Positions 16,925 through 46,323 of a stretch of DNA of 64,000 nt are shown here, piece after piece. The stretch comes from Shigella phage Sf18, in the sequence record MF158044. The stretch is one strand, 5' to 3'. The notes beneath the pieces were generated by a model. The model was not told where the DNA came from and did no database searches. It saw nothing but the letters and a program-made list of their open reading frames with translations. Numbering within the stretch: position 1 is the stretch's first letter; every line of letters begins with the position of its first letter. Made by a program: the position numbers and the translations under genes.

Positions 16925-17365
16925 ATGCAGAGGATGTACGTTCACCCAGATATCAATAACCTTGTCCAAGCTTTAGAAAGAGTTGAAGCACTTTACATCG
17001 AGGCTCAGAAGGAGTATGCTTATCAACATCGTCGAATGGTTGATGTTCAGCATGAGATAGAACTATCAAGTGGATATGACGAAGGTTTAAAGTGCTCGGT
17101 ATTTGAGCACATGAAAGAGATATCTTCAGAAAGACGTAAAGCGAAAGACACAATCTTTTTGATAGATACCTTAAAAAATAAGTTGCAAAATGGAACGGAC
17201 TTAGATAGTCTATCCCAACTGCTTCAGGATGCAGAGAATACATGGGACAGAAATTACTTCCCACGGTCTGAAAAAGGGCTTGACTTCTCTTCACAAGAAA
17301 GCTTAAGATTATCACGACTTACTATTAACAAAATGAGAGAGATTAAAGATGAAAACTGTAAATGA
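16925..17365 (+). CDS. hypothetical protein
   Basis: 146-aa ORF, first gene of rightward unit, SD AGAGG. Confidence 0.4.
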   Translation: MQRMYVHPDINNLVQALERVEALYIEAQKEYAYQHRRMVDVQHEIELSSGYDEGLKCSVFEHMKEISSERRKAKDTIFLIDTLKNKLQNGTDLDSLSQLLQDAENTWDRNYFPRSEKGLDFSSQESLRLSRLTINKMREIKDENCK

Positions 17366-24056: not shown

Positions 24057-24272
24057 ATGTTTAATAAAATCAAAAATGACCATGTTTCTAAAATCCAGAG
24101 TGGCGTAGCAGCACTGAAGGAAACTATCAGCAAAGCTAAGTCAGCTACAGAAGCTGAGATGGATGCTCTGGAATCACAAATTCAACATCTGTTAAGCAAA
24201 CGTGTTGAACTCAAAGAACGAATGGACTATATCGAGTCTCAACAAAAGTTGTTTGAAGATAAGGAGGCTTAA
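24057..24272 (+). CDS. hypothetical coiled-coil protein
   Basis: Start moved to Met after GAGAG SD (MFNKIKN); 71 aa. Confidence 0.35.
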   Translation: MFNKIKNDHVSKIQSGVAALKETISKAKSATEAEMDALESQIQHLLSKRVELKERMDYIESQQKLFEDKEA

Positions 24273-25027
24273 TGTTTAATTCCAGAGAATCCGTAAGAAA
24301 TTGGAATCTACGTTGTGGCAATAATCCAAAAGAACCATACAGCACAGAGTATTGGGAATCACTGAAAAGCCAATCTCTGTGTATGCTTGAAGAAGCTAGA
24401 GAGTTAGTCGCAGCAGTAGAAGCCAAAGACCCTGTTGAGACCCTTGATGCTCAAGCTGATTTACAGTATGTACTTGATGGTTTAATTTTCCTGACACAAC
24501 ATGACCATGATGGTGCTATCAAGGCTGTTTGTGAAAACAACAACCTCAAATACACAGATGACTATCAAGAAGCTCTACAGCGAATGTTTGATATTGAGAA
24601 ACGTACTGGTGATGAATGTTACCTGCGTCAATCAATCATCGAAGGTAAAGAGTGGTTTGCGATTATTCGCAAGTCTGATGGTAAGATTATGAAACAGTCT
24701 AATCTTCCAAAAGTTCAACTTGAAAGTTTTATTGCAGAAGTTGACGCAAAAGAATTATTTGTGGTAACATCTGACACATGCGTTATCTGCCAAGGACTGA
24801 TTGGAAGTCTTGGTAGTCTTGGCATTAAAATCTTTTCTAAAGTTGAACCAATCTCTTCAAAAGCAGATAAAGATTTCTGCCGTGAGAATGGATTATGGCT
24901 TGCGGATATTGTGTACTATGATGGTGAGAAGTTCCATGTAACCTCATATCCGAAATTGAATTATGATGCAATCAACCTCAAGCAGTGGTTGAAAGGAGTC
25001 GGTTATAATGGATTCACAGAACATTAA
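24272..25027 (+). CDS. hypothetical protein, N-terminal MazG-like nucleotide pyrophosphohydrolase fold (tentative)
   Basis: 251 aa; segment EEARELVAAVE...DLQYVLDGLIFL...NNNLKY resembles the EExxE...D helical signature of MazG-type NTP-PPases. Confidence 0.3.
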   Translation: MFNSRESVRNWNLRCGNNPKEPYSTEYWESLKSQSLCMLEEARELVAAVEAKDPVETLDAQADLQYVLDGLIFLTQHDHDGAIKAVCENNNLKYTDDYQEALQRMFDIEKRTGDECYLRQSIIEGKEWFAIIRKSDGKIMKQSNLPKVQLESFIAEVDAKELFVVTSDTCVICQGLIGSLGSLGIKIFSKVEPISSKADKDFCRENGLWLADIVYYDGEKFHVTSYPKLNYDAINLKQWLKGVGYNGFTEH

Positions 25028-33854: not shown

Positions 33855-34166
33855 ATGGAAAAGATTTATAACACTCGTAAAATTCAGATTTCTATCCTGT
33901 GCCAGTTTATGGCTGATAAACACAACTCCCACTATTGTGGTACAGGTTTCCTTACTCTAGGTGGTGGCTACATTAGCTTCAAAGAAGCTGTGAAGATATA
34001 TAATGAGCACCCTGAAGATGATAAAGAGTTAAAACAACTGAAGCTTACTTATGACAAGAAGCGTAAGAAAATCATTTGTTTAAACAACCTTATCAAGCCA
34101 ACTGAAAACGTTTATGATGCAATTGGTGAAGAAGGTTTCTTAAAAGTCTTGAAAATAGCTCAGTAA
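33855..34166 (+). CDS. hypothetical protein
   Basis: 103-aa ORF with SD AAGGA. Confidence 0.4.
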   Translation: MEKIYNTRKIQISILCQFMADKHNSHYCGTGFLTLGGGYISFKEAVKIYNEHPEDDKELKQLKLTYDKKRKKIICLNNLIKPTENVYDAIGEEGFLKVLKIAQ

Positions 34167-34218
34167 ACGTATATGATTAGGGAACTGTAAAAGGTTCCCT
34201 TTTTATTTTGGAGAAATC

Positions 34219-34734
34219 ATGTACCATTCAAATCTGAAACGTGCTGCTGCAATGTCTGTTCTTCGTCTTGATTTTGATGAGCGTCAAGAGTTCATCGAGT
34301 CACATCAGTATGACCCCTCAAATTCTAATCACATGGTGCTTTGGAACCGTGGTAAGTTCCGTGATAGTGCCTTGTTCCAGTACTACCCTCATTACACTAT
34401 TGACAACCTCTATGAATACTGCGTTGTCAAGAACACTATTGCAACCCTTAATAAGCTTTGTAGATATTCTGGAAAGAAAGCTTTCACATTAGGCCACCAT
34501 AAGCCCGTGACAAAAGGTGGAGAGCACCATTGCTCTAACTGGTTTATCCAGACTCAAGAGGATAACCAGAAGCAGGGAGAGAAGCTTCCAGAAGCCCCTA
34601 AGATGACTTGGGAAGAACAGAAAGCATATCTTAAAAATAATATGCCACCAATGCTTGACAGAGAATACGCATTTCTGGCAATATCACTCTTGTTGAAGCT
34701 TGAGACAGTTTATGAGGCAACTTATCATGGCTAG
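34219..34734 (+). CDS. HNH endonuclease
   Basis: 171 aa; HNH signature GHHKPVTKGGEHHCSNWFIQTQEDNQKQ (HH...GG...N...N..K). Confidence 0.55.
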   Translation: MYHSNLKRAAAMSVLRLDFDERQEFIESHQYDPSNSNHMVLWNRGKFRDSALFQYYPHYTIDNLYEYCVVKNTIATLNKLCRYSGKKAFTLGHHKPVTKGGEHHCSNWFIQTQEDNQKQGEKLPEAPKMTWEEQKAYLKNNMPPMLDREYAFLAISLLLKLETVYEATYHG

Positions 34735-35005
34735 AGAACAATGGGATATCAAAGAGCTTATTAGCGAAGCTGGAAATGGTAGTGAGATGTATATGATACG
34801 TGGTCACGTCCCAGATGCACTTGCTATTGAGATGATAGACCACTACTCCAACGGATTCTATAAAGAGTTTGGAGAGCCAAATATTGAACGTACTTGGACA
34901 AAACCAGTACCAGACGGAACAGGAAACTGTTCAGTTATCTACCACATTGTAGACCCAAAGAAATGTAAATCAGCTATGGCTGTAACATTTGTAACTTTTG
35001 ACTGA
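34727..35005 (+). CDS. hypothetical protein
   Basis: Start moved to Met (MAREQW) with GAGGC SD. Confidence 0.3.
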   Translation: MAREQWDIKELISEAGNGSEMYMIRGHVPDALAIEMIDHYSNGFYKEFGEPNIERTWTKPVPDGTGNCSVIYHIVDPKKCKSAMAVTFVTFD

Positions 35006-35017
35006 GAGAGAGATATT

Positions 35018-35899
35018 ATGAAAACTACTATTCGAGTTCTACTTAATTCAAATTCCAAAGGTTCTCATCAAGAGACCTTCAACATTATCCAGTTCCCTTC
35101 TGGGGAGATTGGTGGTAACTTCTCAGAAGACTTAGTAGACTTTGCTGAACATGCTGCTGGTAAGATTGAAAACGTAATATTCACTGTACAAGGTTATGAC
35201 AAAGACACACTCTTTGCATTGGCTATGGCTAAAGAGGCTATTGACCGTTTGATTCCTCAGAAAGCAACCATGAAAACTGTTCTTTTTGGATTCTTACCAA
35301 ATGCTCGCTATGACCGTCACATGTTTAAAGGCGATTCAGCAGCACTTAAAGTCTTTGCAAATCTTGTAAATGCTATGGGGTTTGATGCAGTATGTGCTCT
35401 GGATACTCACAGTAATGTAGCAGAGAACTTGTTTAAGTGCTTCTACAACATCCCTCAAAAAGAGGCAGCAGTCCACTTTGCAAGTGACCCACGCATTGAT
35501 TACTTAGTGGCTCCAGATGCAGGTGCAGCTAAGAAGACTGAAGAGGCTGCTAAAGAGGTTGAGAAACCTTATATCACAATGGCAAAGGTACGAAACCTGA
35601 AAACTGGTGAAATCACTGGTATGCGAATCCTTGATGATGTAGACTTAACAGGTAAGACTGTTATGATTCTGGATGATATCTGTGATGGTGGTCGAACCTT
35701 TATCGAGGCTGCAAAGTATCTTCGTGAAGCTGGAGCAGAACGTGTAGAGCTTTATGTTACTCATGGGATTTTCTCTAAAGGTGTTGAAAATCTTCTTGAC
35801 AATGGCATCGACCATATCTACACTACAGACTCACTAGGGGATGAAAAAGACCGTGGTCTTTCCCACTTCTCACAAGTGACAGTAGCAAATATTGAATAA
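35018..35899 (+). CDS. ribose-phosphate pyrophosphokinase-like protein (Prs family; candidate ADPR-pyrophosphokinase)
   Basis: 293 aa; two PRTase-type lobes with phosphoribosyl-binding loop (VMILDDICDGGRT); directly upstream of NadV-like gene. Confidence 0.75.
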   Translation: MKTTIRVLLNSNSKGSHQETFNIIQFPSGEIGGNFSEDLVDFAEHAAGKIENVIFTVQGYDKDTLFALAMAKEAIDRLIPQKATMKTVLFGFLPNARYDRHMFKGDSAALKVFANLVNAMGFDAVCALDTHSNVAENLFKCFYNIPQKEAAVHFASDPRIDYLVAPDAGAAKKTEEAAKEVEKPYITMAKVRNLKTGEITGMRILDDVDLTGKTVMILDDICDGGRTFIEAAKYLREAGAERVELYVTHGIFSKGVENLLDNGIDHIYTTDSLGDEKDRGLSHFSQVTVANIE

Positions 35900-35943
35900 C
35901 AACTTTAGGGGCTGAAAAGCCCCACTTTGAGAGAGATAAAAAG

Positions 35944-37761
35944 ATGACTAAATCAATCTATGCAGTACCAGCAGGTCTTAATGCAGATGCTTATAAAGCG
36001 GGTCATATCTATCAGTATCCAGATGCTACACAGTATCTTATGTTGAACTTAACACCTCGTGGAGATAAATGGTTTAACTCTCCGTTAGAGATTGATGGTG
36101 TTGTAGCTTTTGGTATTCAGCGTTTTGTAAAAGACTATCTGGTAGACCACTGGAATGCAACGTTCTTTGAACGTGATAAGAAAGAAGCCATTGACGAAAT
36201 CTTGGAAATCATGAATGGTGTCCTTGGTGCAGATGCTATTGGTCGTCAACATTGGGAAGAACTTCATGACTTGGGTTACCTGCCTGTTGAAGTCTACTCT
36301 GTAGAGGAAGGTACAATTGTCCCTATGCGTGTCCCGATGATTGTCTTCAAAAACACTGTAGAAGGATTCCATTGGGTAGCTGGTTATCTTGAAGATGCTT
36401 TCTCTGCTGAAATCTGGAAGGCTTGTACGATTGCAACTATTGCACTGCATTACAAACGTATCTGTAAGCAATGGGCTGATAAGACCTGTGACAATGACTT
36501 CCATTTACCTTGGCAGTGTCATGACTTTGCAATGCGTGGTATGTCTGGCTTCACAGATGATGCGTTTAACGCAGTAGGTCACCTGACAAGTTTTAAAGGT
36601 ACTGACAGCTTCCCTGCTGTATATACAGCTAAACGTGCATATGGTCAGTTTATGAATGTAGGTGAGATTGGTAACTCTGTCCCAGCTACTGAGCACTCTG
36701 TGATGTGTGCAAACATCTCATGGAACAGTCTTAACAAAGAGGTAAGTGATTGGCATCTATCGCATTCTGACAACTTACTTGATGCAATGCGTTGGCGTGG
36801 TGAGGTAGAAACTTTCCATCGCCTTCTGACAGAAGTTTACCCAACTGGTATTGCAAGTGCCGTATCAGATACTTACAACTTCTGGCGTACTGTTACACAG
36901 ATTCTGCCAGAGCTACGTAATGTAATTCTGAATCGTGATGGTAAGTTGGTAATTCGTCCAGACTCTGGAGACCCTGTTCACATTGTTACAGGTTACAAAG
37001 CCATTGAATGGGAAACTGCTAAGTCAATGTTCTATAAGCACATGAAAGAGCTTGCACCGAACAATACACATCTGCATGACACAATCTTGAATTGTGAAAT
37101 GTCTGATATTGGCTTTGGGTTCTCTGCTTGGCTAATCTCTGAAGGTTATGAGATGGTTGTTGATAAAGAAGATTTTGAATCTGCTGATACAATCAACCTT
37201 ATTACTGCTCAGAAGACTGGACAGTTTACTGTGAAGCGTATGCTGACAGCAGAAATTGACGGAGCTATCCACACGCTGTATAACATCTTTGGTGGCACTG
37301 TTAACTCCAAAGGGTACAAAGTACTGGATGAGCACATTGGGCTAATCTACGGTGATTCTATCACTCTGGAAAGGGCTAATGATATTCTGTCACGTCTTGC
37401 TGATAAAGGTTTTGCAAGTTCTAACGTAGTGTTTGGTGTAGGTTCATACACCTATCAGTACCTGACTCGTGACACCTTTGCATTTGCTGTTAAAGCAACT
37501 CTTGCACAGATGGATGGTCAAGAAATTATGCTGGCTAAAGACCCTAAAACTGACAGCGGTCTTAAGAAGTCTGCTTTTGGTGGAGTTGTCCCTATGTGGG
37601 ATGGTGACAAGCTGGTAGCTGTAGATGGTTTTGGCTTTGCAGAGTTTGAAGGTGCAATTGACAATTGTCATAGTGCTTTGAAACTGGTATTTAGCAACTC
37701 GCAACCTTATGGTTACGTTAACCTGCGTGATGTTCGAAATACTATTGACAAGCAACTTTAA
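35944..37761 (+). CDS. nadV: nicotinamide phosphoribosyltransferase family protein (NadV/Nampt-like)
   Basis: 605 aa; Nampt-like N-terminus (AVPAGLNADAYKAGHIYQYP) and conserved core (GDSI, VFGVGSY blocks). Confidence 0.8.
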   Translation: MTKSIYAVPAGLNADAYKAGHIYQYPDATQYLMLNLTPRGDKWFNSPLEIDGVVAFGIQRFVKDYLVDHWNATFFERDKKEAIDEILEIMNGVLGADAIGRQHWEELHDLGYLPVEVYSVEEGTIVPMRVPMIVFKNTVEGFHWVAGYLEDAFSAEIWKACTIATIALHYKRICKQWADKTCDNDFHLPWQCHDFAMRGMSGFTDDAFNAVGHLTSFKGTDSFPAVYTAKRAYGQFMNVGEIGNSVPATEHSVMCANISWNSLNKEVSDWHLSHSDNLLDAMRWRGEVETFHRLLTEVYPTGIASAVSDTYNFWRTVTQILPELRNVILNRDGKLVIRPDSGDPVHIVTGYKAIEWETAKSMFYKHMKELAPNNTHLHDTILNCEMSDIGFGFSAWLISEGYEMVVDKEDFESADTINLITAQKTGQFTVKRMLTAEIDGAIHTLYNIFGGTVNSKGYKVLDEHIGLIYGDSITLERANDILSRLADKGFASSNVVFGVGSYTYQYLTRDTFAFAVKATLAQMDGQEIMLAKDPKTDSGLKKSAFGGVVPMWDGDKLVAVDGFGFAEFEGAIDNCHSALKLVFSNSQPYGYVNLRDVRNTIDKQL

Positions 37762-37775
37762 AACAGTATGATAAG

Positions 37776-37798
37776 AGGCTCCTACGGGAGCCTTTTTA
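37776..37798 (+). terminator. intrinsic terminator
   Basis: AGGCTCC-TACG-GGAGCCT hairpin followed by TTTTT. Confidence 0.55.
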
Positions 37799-45334: not shown

Positions 45335-45527
45335 TTTCTGCACTAAGTGTTCTGTTGAGATGTTTGGAAAAGACACAGGGGACTTAAAAGGCCTCTTTAC
45401 AAAAGCAGAGTTTGAAGCTGGTTCAGCAATGCCAGTAATCTGTGAAGGTTGTGGTGCTTTATGGGTAGACCATGAAGGTAACCGAGTTAAACCATCTGAA
45501 GATAACGAACGTTGGGAGCATTACTAA
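45327..45527 (+). CDS. small zinc-ribbon protein
   Basis: 66 aa with CxxC...CxxC (CTKCS...CEGCG). Confidence 0.35.
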   Translation: MADFCTKCSVEMFGKDTGDLKGLFTKAEFEAGSAMPVICEGCGALWVDHEGNRVKPSEDNERWEHY

Positions 45528-45528
45528 T

Positions 45529-46323
45529 ATGGGTATCGTAAAAATTATTAAAGGTGATATCTTTAAAGACTTTGATGGTAAGAAATTTGATATCATTGGT
45601 CACGGTTGTAACTGCATGAACTTGATGGGTGCAGGTATTGCAGCAACAATTGCTAAACGCTACCCAAAAGCTTATGAAACTGACGCTGAAGTTTATGCTA
45701 CAGTAGGTGGTGAAAATCATAACCCTAAGCATCTAATGCTTGGTAACATCTCTGTAGCACGTTTTAAGCAGGGTCGAATTGCTAACCTTTACACTCAGGT
45801 TATCACTGGCAAAGATGCACGATACAACGCCTTAGAAGCAGCTTTACAGCGTCTTAACAACTACTGTAAAGTTAATCAACTTAAGAAAGTTGGGCTTCCG
45901 ATGATTGGTGCAGGGATTGGTGGTCTTGATAGCATGGCTGTACTGTCCATTATCAACCAGACTATGAAGGATGTTGACGTTTATATGTATGTCTATGAAG
46001 ATAAGATGTACAGTCAGTTGACTAGTCCTGTTACTGGTTGGGAGAACTTCAGTGAGCCTCAATACTTTGATGGTGTTGCTGTGGTAGGCAAGGATAAAGT
46101 TACCCTCAAGGTGAAGCGTAATGGCAAGGTACACACCAGTTACCCTCCGGTTGAGAAGTACAATCGAAGTAACGCTCAAGTTACCCACCCGTTACAAGGT
46201 CACCACCACAGAGCGGTAACGTTTAGCGATGATGCAAGTGTATATATCAATGCGACTACAGAAGAGTTTGCAGAAGATTATATCACACATGAAAACGTAA
46301 ACTATGTTGAAGCACGTAACTAA
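45529..46323 (+). CDS. macro-domain protein (ADP-ribose binding/hydrolase family)
   Basis: Start at Met (MGIVKIIKGDIF); macro signatures GDIF, DIIGHGCNCMNLMGAGIAATI, VGLPMIGAGIGGL; C-terminal 120 aa unassigned. Confidence 0.55.
   Translation: MGIVKIIKGDIFKDFDGKKFDIIGHGCNCMNLMGAGIAATIAKRYPKAYETDAEVYATVGGENHNPKHLMLGNISVARFKQGRIANLYTQVITGKDARYNALEAALQRLNNYCKVNQLKKVGLPMIGAGIGGLDSMAVLSIINQTMKDVDVYMYVYEDKMYSQLTSPVTGWENFSEPQYFDGVAVVGKDKVTLKVKRNGKVHTSYPPVEKYNRSNAQVTHPLQGHHHRAVTFSDDASVYINATTEEFAEDYITHENVNYVEARN

What the first reader, a model, noticed from the sequence alone, without database searches (positions are those of the whole stretch)
35018..37761. Adjacent Prs-like and NadV-like genes: candidate NAD+ reconstitution (NARP1-type) anti-defence pair
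A ribose-phosphate pyrophosphokinase-family gene (35018-35899) sits directly upstream of a nicotinamide phosphoribosyltransferase-family gene (35944-37761), each with its own strong ribosome-binding site and the pair closed by a terminator. This two-gene architecture matches the phage NAD+ reconstitution pathway 1 (an ADPR-pyrophosphokinase plus a nicotinamide ADPR-transferase) reported to rebuild NAD+ from the ADP-ribose and nicotinamide left by NAD+-depleting defence effectors. The alternative is ordinary NAD salvage via PRPP and NMN; sequence alone cannot tell which substrate the Prs-like enzyme uses.
Basis: partly seen in the sequence, partly recalled or inferred. Interest (0 to 1): 0.65.

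Follow-up and report, generated by a model that had tools for sequence, protein, structure and literature searches.

The report
Known phage NAD+-rebuilding gene pair (NARP1)

Summary
Both ORFs exist exactly as described: 35018-35899 (293 aa, Prs family) and 35944-37761 (605 aa, Nampt family), closed by a terminator at 37773-37796. The window is a Felix-O1-like myovirus (Ounavirinae, Mooglevirus), about 98-99% identical to Shigella phage Sf17.

The pair is syntenic with Bas63 genes 79-80, the operon in which NARP1 was discovered. Identity is 81% for Adps (gap-free, same length) and 75% for Namat. Sf13 and Sf17 proteins, 99-100% identical to these, are already listed as Adps and "Adps-associated" Namat in that paper's tables.

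Residue tests agree:
- The Namat signature GSXΦXΦXΦTRD is present (GSYTYQYLTRD) and all catalytic and clamp residues are conserved.
- The Prs-like protein keeps its catalytic K-x-R and ribose-binding Asp residues.
- It lacks Thr225, the canonical contact for the ribose 5-phosphate (Gly here).
- It has no Pfam match to the Prs N-terminal domain model and fails every Prs equivalog model.

No Nmnat was found, so NARP2 is excluded.

Two side observations are worth noting. A Poa1p/Adpp-like Macro-domain gene lies 7.7 kb downstream. The Namat carries an Ounavirinae-specific, confidently folded insertion of about 90 aa with no known fold relative.

The parts
35018..35899 (+). adps: ADP-ribose pyrophosphate synthetase (Prs-family), 293 aa. 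Catalytic K190-V-R192 lies at nt 35585-35593. The altered 5-phosphate loop DDICDGGRT (aa 219-227) lies at nt 35672-35698.
   Evidence: ORF. phrog_619 and TIGR01251. 81% gap-free identity to Bas63 gp79, 100% to Sf13 and 99% to Sf17 gp105. Motifs.
35944..37761 (+). namat: nicotinamide ADP-ribose transferase (Nampt-family), 605 aa. The SCL loop TPRGDKWFNSPLEID (aa 37-51) lies at nt 36052-36096. The SCH signature GSYTYQYLTRD (aa 500-510) lies at nt 37441-37473.
   Evidence: ORF. phrog_448 and NF006629. 75% identity to Bas63 gp80 and 99.7% to Sf17 gp106. Best sequence and fold matches in the PDB are the SPbetaL1 Namat structures 9W5X/9W5W. Residue mapping.
36994..37260 (+). Lineage-specific insertion in Namat (aa 351-439), predicted to be an autonomous alpha/beta sub-domain. 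A second, smaller helical insertion covers aa 258-283 (nt 36715-36792).
   Evidence: Delimited against SPbetaL1 Namat. By tblastn it is found only in 253 Felix-O1-like (Ounavirinae) records. AlphaFold2 pLDDT is 92-95 within the whole protein and 93 alone. No fold relative was found.
35908..35923 (+). Intergenic hairpin GGGGCU-GAAA-AGCCCC between adps and namat, followed by ACTTTG. It may be a weak attenuator or an mRNA-stability element.
   Evidence: RNAfold -12.8 kcal/mol. The same stem is present in Bas63 with a different loop. The terminator scan did not call it because the T-run is short.
37773..37796 (+). Intrinsic terminator closing the pair: 10-bp stem, 4-nt loop, T-run.
   Evidence: Conserved in Bas63.
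34149..34200 (+). Upstream boundary module: a promoter-like site (TTGAAA-17-TATGAT) followed at once by a GC hairpin and T-run. It is the likely start of the transcription unit that ends at 37796. That unit holds ORFs 34219-34734 and 34727-35005, then adps and namat.
   Evidence: The reading as a transcription unit is inference only.
45529..46323 (+). Possible accessory gene, function not shown: a Poa1p/Adpp-like Macro-domain protein of 264 aa, 7.7 kb downstream of namat.
   Evidence: Pfam Macro PF01661 at 32.9 bits, cut-off 22. 30% identity over the whole of Vibrio phage Gary Adpp, E 2e-17. Same PHROG, phrog_335. Best PDB hits are yeast Poa1p, an ADPR-1''-P phosphatase.

Best explanation
The two genes are the NARP1 counter-defence pathway of a Felix-O1-like (Mooglevirus) phage. 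When a host NADase effector such as SIR2-HerA, type I Thoeris, DSR or SEFIR splits NAD+ into ADP-ribose and nicotinamide, two steps rebuild it. First, the Prs-like enzyme (Adps) uses ATP to pyrophosphorylate the 1''-OH of ADP-ribose, giving ADPR-PP. Second, the Nampt-like enzyme (Namat) replaces that pyrophosphate with nicotinamide, regenerating NAD+ directly without passing through PRPP or NMN.

What is shown here: orthology and synteny with the founding operon, conservation of every published catalytic and specificity residue, and fold identity with the Namat crystal structure.

What was shown elsewhere:
- Genetics and metabolomics in Bas63.
- Enzymology and crystal structures with the SPbetaL1 homologues.

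What is inferred: that this phage's own enzymes have the same activities and protect it in the same way.
For: 1. Orthology. The window is 98-99% identical to Shigella phage Sf17, Ounavirinae/Mooglevirus.
- Adps is 81% identical, gap-free and of equal length, to Bas63 gp79. Namat is 75% identical to Bas63 gp80.
- Gene order is the same: NrdG ... two small ORFs, adps, namat, three small ORFs, rIIA.

2. Bas63 experiments (bioRxiv 10.1101/2024.02.11.579819).
- Deleting genes 79-80 lowered plating about 20-fold on SIR2-HerA cells.
- The wild type partly restored NAD+.
- Protection persisted in a host lacking pncC and nadR, which excludes the NMN route.
- ADPR-PP (m/z 720.010) appeared only with both the defence system and the two genes present.

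3. Catalogue. That paper's Tables S1 and S2 list Sf13, Sf17, Michonne, Felix O1 and wV8 proteins as Adps and 'Adps-associated' Namat. The window Adps is 100% identical to the Sf13 protein and the window Namat is 99.7% identical to the Sf17 protein.

4. Namat signature (PMC12774641).
[quoted passage not shown] SPbetaL1 has GSFTYQYNTRD.
- True Nampts lack it: Xcc GGALLQKVDRD and H. ducreyi NadV GAQTYQRNTRD.
- The SCL loop has Lys42-Trp43, exactly as in Bas63.
- D15, Y17, F195, R198, D221, R338, D340, G470 and D471 are all conserved.

5. Structure. The AlphaFold2 model has pLDDT 91.7. Its best Foldseek hits are 9W5X/9W5W Namat, with TM 0.94-0.95 on the target and E 4.5e-53.

6. Adps residues.
- Catalytic K190-x-R192 (SPbetaL1 K162) and the ribose- and ATP-binding residues D167, D219, D220, T227, R97/D99/R100 and H131 are kept.
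- The equivalent of Thr225 is Gly224. It is never Thr in 22 Adps-clade sequences, and it is Thr in the 3 canonical Prs examined.
- There is no Pfam hit to Pribosyltran_N, against 179 bits for E. coli Prs.
- All Prs equivalog models fail, for example 104 bits against a 297-bit cut-off.
Against: - No experiment exists on this phage or on any Mooglevirus.
- Purified-enzyme biochemistry and the crystal structures come from SPbetaL1 proteins that are only about 34% (Adps) and 41-43% (Namat) identical to these. The Bas63 protein 'did not purify well'.
- Namat retains PRPP-to-NMN activity in vitro, so some ordinary salvage flux cannot be excluded.
- The meaning of the Thr225 replacement is my inference. 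No Adps structure or specificity study was found.
- The Ounavirinae Namat carries about 115 extra residues whose influence on activity is unknown.
Confidence: 0.92

Rival explanations
1. Ordinary NAD+ salvage. The first enzyme is a true PRPP synthetase, the second a true Nampt that makes NMN, and host NadR or PncC finish the synthesis of NAD+.
For: Public annotations give exactly these names. The broad TIGR01251 subfamily model is passed, 133.5 against 113 bits. Namat enzymes can still make NMN from PRPP in vitro.
Against: - The Bas63 orthologues protect in a host lacking pncC and nadR.
- SPbetaL1 Adps gave no product in the ribose-5-phosphate (PRPP-synthetase) control. The text says 'PRPP and ATP' and the figure legend says ribose-5-phosphate. 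Namat made only NAD+ when given both ADPR-PP and PRPP.
- The window proteins carry the Namat clamp signature, lack the Prs Thr225 contact, have no Pfam match to the Prs N-terminal domain model, and fail all Prs equivalog models.
Confidence: 0.04
2. NARP2-type pathway: a Nampt working with a phage NMN adenylyltransferase to overproduce NAD+ from PRPP.
For: NARP2 also uses a Nampt-family enzyme and is found in large myoviruses such as KVP40.
Against: - No Nmnat, Nudix, NadR or PnuC domain appears in the 30 flanking or larger unannotated ORFs of the window scanned against Pfam. The scan did not cover every ORF.
- No such gene is annotated anywhere in the Sf17 genome.
- The Nampt-like protein sits next to an Adps and carries the Namat motif. 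Published NARP2 Nampts form a separate clade without an Adps.
Confidence: 0.01
3. Nucleotide-supply module. The Prs-like enzyme boosts PRPP for phage DNA synthesis, and its position next to a Nampt-like gene is incidental.
For: The pair lies in the nucleotide-metabolism region, downstream of nrdA/B, nrdD/G, a dNMP kinase and a MazG-like gene.
Against: - 97% of Adps-clade genes have a Namat next to them.
- The Bas63 deletion phenotype is specific to an NAD+-depleting defence, and no excess NAD+ or ADPR-PP is seen without the defence system.
- The 5-phosphate contact of canonical Prs is lost.
Confidence: 0.03

Closest known systems
NARP1 of Escherichia phage Bas63 (JohannRWettstein, MZ501086), genes 79-80. 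This is the founding, genetically validated example.
   Same: Same subfamily (Ounavirinae), gene order, neighbours and gene lengths. Identity is 81% and 75%. The catalytic residues, clamp residues (K42-W43; GSYTYQY[LM]TRD) and 5-phosphate loop (DDICDGGRT) are identical. The intergenic hairpin and terminator are the same, and both have the Namat insertions.
   Different: Different genus (Mooglevirus, not Felixounavirus). Insertion 1 is 11-12 residues longer. The 88-aa insertion is only about 46-48% identical, against 75% for the whole protein.
NARP1 of Bacillus phage SPbetaL1 (Adps WIT26982, Namat WIT26983; PDB 9W5X/9W5W). This is the biochemically and structurally characterised example.
   Same: Two-gene adps-namat order. 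Catalytic Lys (K162 to K190) and Arg (R306 to R338). SCH signature. Fold TM 0.94-0.95.
   Different: Only 34% and 41-43% identity. The SCL uses Arg40 rather than Lys-Trp. The 5-phosphate loop is DDLSSFGGT rather than DDICDGGRT. SPbetaL1 Namat lacks both insertions (491 against 605 aa).
NARP1-AP of Vibrio phage Gary (Adps-Adpp-Namat; bioRxiv 10.64898/2026.01.28.702374)
   Same: The window phage has an adps-namat pair and, elsewhere in the genome, a Macro-domain protein of the same PHROG and Pfam family as Adpp. It aligns over the full length of Adpp.
   Different: The Macro gene is 7.7 kb and about 17 genes away, not inside the operon. It has an extra C-terminal region of about 105 aa. Its activity is untested. 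The family also occurs in T4-like phages, which are not known to carry NARP1 (my own knowledge, not tested here).
Canonical class I PRPP synthetase (E. coli Prs) and Nampt (human NAMPT, Xanthomonas Nampt, H. ducreyi NadV)
   Same: Same superfamily folds and the shared chemistry of pyrophosphoryl transfer and nicotinamide coupling.
   Different: - Against Prs: 30% identity; no Pfam match to the N-terminal domain model; Thr225 is Gly; the C-terminus is shorter, lacking the last ~20 residues.
- Against Nampt: about 22-32% identity in the structural alignments, and an aromatic adenine clamp is present.

Membership tests
NARP1 (Adps + Namat) | A Prs-family protein belonging to the phage Adps clade rather than to cellular Prs | tested here: met
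   81% identity to Bas63 gp79. An identical Sf13 protein is listed in the paper's Adps table. phrog_619 E 3e-100. All Prs equivalog models fail. No tree was built here.
NARP1 (Adps + Namat) | A Namat homologue within ten genes of adps (97% of the clade) | tested here: met
   namat starts 44 nt after the adps stop codon, on the same strand.
NARP1 (Adps + Namat) | [quoted passage not shown] | tested here: met
   GSYTYQYLTRD at aa 500-510, with Y502 and Y506. Φ3 is Leu rather than the commoner Asn or Val. All 41 aligned homologues carry the motif. Xcc Nampt and HdNadV do not.
NARP1 (Adps + Namat) | An SCL loop that supplies an adenine-stacking residue: third residue Arg, or Lys/Tyr followed by the stacking residue | tested here: met
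   The window has G40-D41-K42-W43. Bas63 has S40-D41-K42-W43, the case modelled in PMC12774641. The stacking itself was not modelled here.
NARP1 (Adps + Namat) | An intact Nampt-like catalytic core in Namat (SPbetaL1 F189, R192, D215, R306, D308, G360-D361) | tested here: met
   F195, R198, D221, R338, D340, G470 and D471 are all conserved.
NARP1 (Adps + Namat) | The Adps catalytic lysine (SPbetaL1 K162, equivalent to B. subtilis Prs K197) | tested here: met
   K190 in KVRNLKTGE aligns with K162 in KQRNFHTGE.
NARP1 (Adps + Namat) | Enzymatic activities: ADPR + ATP gives ADPR-PP; ADPR-PP + nicotinamide gives NAD+ | not testable with these tools
   Needs purified proteins or LC-MS of infected cells.
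NARP1 (Adps + Namat) | Protection of the phage against NAD+-depleting defence systems | not testable with these tools
   Needs a deletion phage and hosts that carry the defence systems.
Canonical PRPP synthetase (Prs, class I) | All ribose-5-phosphate contacts (E. coli D170, D220, D221, T225, T228) | tested here: not met
   D167, D219, D220 and T227 are kept, but T225 is G224.
Canonical PRPP synthetase (Prs, class I) | A recognisable N-terminal Prs domain (Pfam PF13793) and a pass on NCBIfam Prs equivalog cut-offs | tested here: not met
   No PF13793 hit, against 179.5 bits for E. coli Prs. The best equivalog or subfamily scores are 104-107 bits against cut-offs of 296-297. Only the broad TIGR01251 subfamily model is passed.
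Canonical Nampt / NARP2 | No adenine clamp in the SCH-equivalent segment, and a partner Nmnat in the same genome | tested here: not met
   The clamp signature is present. No Nmnat was found among the 30 window ORFs scanned against Pfam, nor in the Sf17 annotation.
NARP1-AP (NARP1 with associated phosphatase Adpp) | A Macro-domain Adpp gene within two genes of the NARP1 operon | tested here: not met
   None of the five ORFs upstream or four downstream has a Macro domain. The preprint's table has no Felix-like or Shigella phage entries.
NARP1-AP (NARP1 with associated phosphatase Adpp) | An Adpp/Poa1p-family ADPR-1''-P phosphatase encoded by the phage | tested here: inconclusive
   A homologue is present at 45529-46323: E 2e-17 to Gary Adpp, same phrog_335, and Poa1p as the best PDB hit. 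Its activity and its functional link to NARP1 are untested, and the family is widespread.

The most novel reading that the evidence does not exclude
The phage may run a genomically dispersed version of the extended pathway NARP1-AP. In this reading the Poa1p/Adpp-like Macro-domain protein at 45529-46323, 7.7 kb from namat and conserved as Bas63 gp95, removes the 1''-phosphate from ADPR-1''-P made by aRES-type defences. That would feed the Adps/Namat pair. Felix-O1-like phages would then resist aRES even though the published survey, limited to two genes either side, counts them as plain NARP1.

Separately, the Ounavirinae-only ~90-aa folded insertion in Namat has no detectable fold relative. 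It may have a lineage-specific role, for example in regulation, oligomerisation or partner binding.
Probability: 0.3. Interest if true: 0.45.

Novelty: already known. Interest (0 to 1): 0.15.

Why it matters
As a finding it mainly corrects annotation. Public records for this phage group still name the two genes 'ribose-phosphate pyrophosphokinase' and 'nicotinamide phosphoribosyltransferase'. They are the NARP1 counter-defence enzymes Adps and Namat, which predicts that these Shigella, Citrobacter and E. coli phages can overcome SIR2-, TIR- and SEFIR-type NAD+-depleting defences. That is useful when choosing therapeutic phages.

The side observations could add something modest:
- If the distant Macro-domain gene works as Adpp, the reported share of NARP1 phages able to counter aRES (15%) is an underestimate.
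- The loss of Thr225 in the Adps clade is a simple sequence marker for telling Adps from Prs.

Tried and rejected
- I guessed MZ501111 for Bas63. It is Bas51. The correct accession, MZ501086, came from the BASEL supplement.
- From a primer sequence I guessed that PDB 9KE8 was KVP40 Nampt. Foldseek's description shows it is Haemophilus ducreyi NadV. It still serves as a true-Nampt comparator.
- I looked for a published Adps structure or specificity determinants and found none. The Thr225 argument therefore rests on E. coli PRPS structures plus my own comparison.
- I looked for the Adpp residues mutated in the 2026 preprint. They are marked only in a figure and are not in the text or tables held.
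- Model coordinates are not exposed. I therefore could not place the insertion relative to the active site or the dimer interface.
- I considered a Macro or RyR-domain accessory gene inside the operon and rejected it.
- I considered NARP2 and rejected it, because no Nmnat was found.
Full report
**Observation.** The two ORFs are at exactly the coordinates given: 35018-35899 (+, 293 aa) and 35944-37761 (+, 605 aa), 44 nt apart.
- The first ORF matches phrog_619 'ribose-phosphate pyrophosphokinase' (E 3e-100), TIGR01251 (133.5 bits, cut-off 113) and Pfam PF00156 and PF14572.
- The second matches phrog_448 (E 2e-199), NF006629 (465 bits, cut-off 405) and Pfam PF04095 and PF18127.
- A 10-bp GC-rich hairpin with a T-run at 37773-37796 closes the pair.
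- The 'strong RBS' claim is only partly right. Predicted pairing with the 16S 3' end is -5.4 and -5.5 kcal/mol, against -13 for a perfect Shine-Dalgarno and -9.1 for the neighbouring rIIA gene. About 15% of random sites reach -5. Both genes share a TGAGAGAGAT motif before the ATG, and the motif recurs before two other start codons.
- A conserved hairpin (35908-35923, -12.8 kcal/mol) lies between the two genes.

**Genomic context.** The region is 99% identical to Shigella phage Sf17 and 98-99% identical to Sf13, Sf15 and Sf19. A 20-kb stretch is 98% identical to Sf17, which belongs to Ounavirinae, genus Mooglevirus. The pair lies downstream of the nrdA/B and nrdD/G genes and upstream of rIIA/rIIB.

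**Identity with the founding NARP1 operon.** NARP1 was discovered in the BASEL phage Bas63 (JohannRWettstein), a Felixounavirus of the same subfamily. I retrieved Bas63 (MZ501086).
- Genes 79 and 80 occupy the same syntenic position.
- gp79 is 293 aa and 81% identical to the window protein without a single gap.
- gp80 is 593 aa and 75% identical.

The published evidence for that operon is as follows (bioRxiv 10.1101/2024.02.11.579819).
- Deletion lowered plating about 20-fold on SIR2-HerA cells.
- The wild type partly restored NAD+.
- ADPR-PP (m/z 720.010) appeared only when both the defence system and the two genes were present.
- Purified SPbetaL1 homologues converted ADPR + ATP to ADPR-PP. 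The PRPP-synthetase control (text 'PRPP and ATP'; legend ribose-5-phosphate) gave no measurable product.
- The SPbetaL1 Namat converted ADPR-PP + nicotinamide to NAD+, preferring ADPR-PP over PRPP.

The paper's supplementary tables already list Sf13, Sf17, Michonne, Felix O1 and wV8 proteins as Adps and 'Adps-associated' Namat. The window Adps is 100% identical to the Sf13 protein. The window Namat is 99.7% identical to the Sf17 protein. The finding is therefore already in the literature at the level of this phage lineage.

**Residue-level tests, Namat.** The 2026 structural study (PMC12774641) defines a selectivity clamp. [quoted passage not shown]
- The window protein has GSYTYQYLTRD at aa 500-510. 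SPbetaL1 has GSFTYQYNTRD at 390-400, which matches the paper's numbering.
- True Nampts have GGALLQKVDRD (Xanthomonas, 7YQO) and GAQTYQRNTRD (H. ducreyi NadV, 9KE8).
- The SCL reads G-D-K42-W43, the Lys-then-stacking-residue arrangement described for Bas63.
- The other NAD+-contacting residues are conserved: D15, Y17, F195, R198, D221, A248, R338, D340, G470, D471, T508, R509, D510. The exceptions (S190 to Ala, A362 to Ser) are identical in Bas63.
- An AlphaFold2 model built on 41 homologues has pLDDT 91.7 and pTM 0.90.
- Its best matches among solved structures are the Namat crystal structures 9W5X/9W5W (E 4.5e-53, TM 0.94-0.95 on the target). HdNadV and mammalian NAMPT follow.

**Residue-level tests, Adps.** In E. 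coli PRPS, R5P hydrogen-bonds D170, D220, D221, T225 and T228 (PMC9232217). The 5-phosphate sits on the backbone of D224, T225 and G226 and on the Thr225 side chain (PMC6332680).
- The window protein keeps D167, D219, D220 and T227, the catalytic K190-x-R192, the RxDR motif and H131.
- Thr225 is replaced by Gly224, giving DDICDGGRT against DDMIDTGGT. Bas63 is identical.
- In 22 Adps-clade sequences printed from the paper's table, this position is G, Y, F or K and never T. In the three canonical Prs I hold it is T.
- That fits a substrate whose 5-phosphate is esterified to AMP. The link to specificity is my inference, because no Adps structure or specificity study was found.
- The protein has no Pfam hit to the Prs N-terminal domain model (E. 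coli Prs scores 179.5 bits). Its C-terminus is shorter than that of E. coli Prs, lacking the last ~20 residues. It fails every NCBIfam Prs equivalog, for example 104 against 297 bits.

**Rivals.**
- Ordinary Prs/Nampt salvage is contradicted by the Bas63 result in the pncC/nadR deletion host and by the residue tests.
- NARP2 requires an Nmnat. None appears among the 30 flanking or larger unannotated ORFs scanned with Pfam, nor in the complete Sf17 annotation.
- A pure nucleotide-supply role is unlikely. The Adps-Namat linkage is nearly universal (97%) and the Bas63 phenotype depends on the defence system.

**Side observation 1: a distant Adpp-like gene.** ORF 45529-46323 (264 aa from the ATG that matches Sf17 gp121; the longest ORF starts at 45472) has a Macro domain, PF01661, at 32.9 bits against a cut-off of 22. 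A 2026 preprint (10.64898/2026.01.28.702374) makes three relevant points.
- aRES defences convert NAD+ to ADPR-1''-phosphate, which NARP1 cannot use.
- 15% of NARP1 operons contain a Poa1p-like Macro phosphatase (Adpp) that restores the pathway.
- That survey looked only within two genes of NARP1, and its table has no Felix-like or Shigella phage entries.

The window protein relates to Adpp as follows.
- It aligns over the full length of the validated Vibrio phage Gary Adpp (30% identity, E 2e-17).
- It falls in the same PHROG, phrog_335 'phosphatase'.
- Yeast Poa1p (6LFU/6LFT/6LFQ) is its best solved relative.
- It is 64% identical to Bas63 gp95.
- It carries about 105 extra C-terminal residues.

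The family occurs in 2,839 phage records, including T4-like phages (tk.4). To my knowledge T4-like phages lack NARP1; I did not test that here. Co-occurrence is therefore not specific, and a functional link to NARP1 remains a hypothesis.

**Side observation 2: Namat insertions.** Relative to SPbetaL1 Namat, the window protein has insertions at aa 46-49, 258-283 and 351-439.
- By tblastn the large insertion is found only in 253 Felix-O1-like (Ounavirinae) records. It is 46-48% identical to the Felixounavirus version, against 75% for the whole protein.
- Insertion-bearing forms of 560-610 aa extend down to about 44% identity. Compact forms of about 495 aa with the same Namat motif occur on enterobacterial chromosomes.
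- The insertion is predicted with high confidence as an autonomous β-α-α-α-β-β-α-β-α domain, with pLDDT 92-95 in context and 93 alone.
- It has almost no invariant residues.
- The structural paper does not mention it.
- Its function is unknown.

**Side observation 3: promoter-hairpin modules.** Three modules were found in which a sigma-70-like promoter (TTGACA or TTGAAA, 16-18 nt, TATGAT) is followed at once by a strong hairpin and a T-run. They lie at 34149-34200 (+), 37745-37796 (+) and 59299-59240 (-). The first two bracket a four-gene block.
- ORF 34219-34734: phrog_3500, with weak HNH similarity.
- ORF 34727-35005: phrog_4726.
- adps.
- namat.

**Verdict.** It is an already-known system in an already-catalogued lineage, so interest is low. 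The most novel reading that remains open is a genomically dispersed NARP1-AP involving the distant Macro-domain gene, together with an unexplained lineage-specific domain in Namat.

Noticed in passing
window 45529-46323 (+); the longest ORF starts at 45472: A Macro-domain protein (PF01661) of the Poa1p/Adpp family (phrog_335) lies 7.7 kb downstream of namat. It is 30% identical over the full length of the validated ADPR-1''-P phosphatase Adpp of Vibrio phage Gary and 64% identical to Bas63 gp95, and has an extra C-terminal region of about 105 aa. It could make this a dispersed NARP1-AP that the published survey, limited to two genes either side, would miss. The family is also common in T4-like phages.
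   Followed up: partly
window 36994-37260 (Namat aa 351-439) and 36715-36792 (aa 258-283): Ounavirinae-specific insertions in Namat. The large one is predicted as an autonomous alpha/beta domain (pLDDT 93). It evolves faster than the rest of the protein, has almost no invariant residues, and has no significant fold relative in the PDB or BFVD. The Namat structural paper does not discuss it.
   Followed up: partly
window 35908-35923 (+): A conserved 6-bp GC hairpin (GGGGCU-GAAA-AGCCCC, -12.8 kcal/mol) followed by ACTTTG sits in the 44-nt gap between adps and namat. The same stem occurs in Bas63 with a different loop. It may be an attenuator or an mRNA-stability element.
   Followed up: partly
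window 34149-34200 (+), 37745-37796 (+), 59299-59240 (-): Three modules in which a near-consensus sigma-70 promoter (-10 hexamer TATGAT) is followed at once by a strong terminator-like hairpin and T-run. They recall the promoter-early-stem-loop elements of T4-like phages (from my own knowledge, not tested). Two of them bracket the four-gene block that ends with adps and namat.
   Followed up: partly
window 34219-34734 and 34727-35005 (+): Two small conserved ORFs lie directly upstream of adps inside the same bracketed block: phrog_3500 (171 aa, weak HNH-endonuclease similarity, E 2e-5) and phrog_4726 (92 aa). They correspond to Bas63 gp77-78. Their function is unknown and they were not part of the published 79-80 deletion.
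   Followed up: partly
window 17335, 33565, 35004, 35929 (+): A GAGAGAGA(T) purine tract recurs 14-15 nt before the ATG start codons at 17349, 33580, 35018 and 35944. It appears to be a phage-specific translation-initiation motif that pairs only moderately with the anti-Shine-Dalgarno sequence.
   Followed up: partly
Adps 5-phosphate loop, window 35672-35698; compared with sequences from the founding paper's Table S1: The residue equivalent to E. coli Prs Thr225 is never Thr in 22 Adps-clade proteins. It is Gly in Gram-negative phages, Tyr or Phe in Bacillus, Staphylococcus and Listeria phages, and Lys in one. It is Thr in the canonical Prs examined. This is a possible one-residue marker for telling Adps from Prs, and I did not find it stated in the literature I searched.
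   Followed up: partly
proteins P0064-P0120 (for example P0084, Klebsiella michiganensis, a cluster of 1229 members): Namat-like proteins of about 495 aa carrying the full Namat SCH signature are encoded on large enterobacterial contigs of up to 6 Mb (Klebsiella, Phytobacter, Kosakonia, Citrobacter, Erwinia). They may be bacterial or prophage NARP1, as reported for Paenibacillus. I did not check whether an adps lies next to them.
   Followed up: no
Founding paper's Table S1, entry FJ373894_00125 (Shigella phage Ag3), seen: The listed protein runs from an Adps N-terminal part (up to DDICDGGRTFVE) straight into Namat-like sequence (…ATEHAVMCMG…RPDSGDPV…). This suggests an Adps-Namat fusion, a deletion or a gene-calling artefact in that phage.
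   Followed up: no
window 24272-25027 (+): A MazG/PRA-PH-like pyrophosphohydrolase domain protein (PF01503, E 7e-7) lies in the nucleotide-metabolism region. It corresponds to Sf17 gp87.
   Followed up: no
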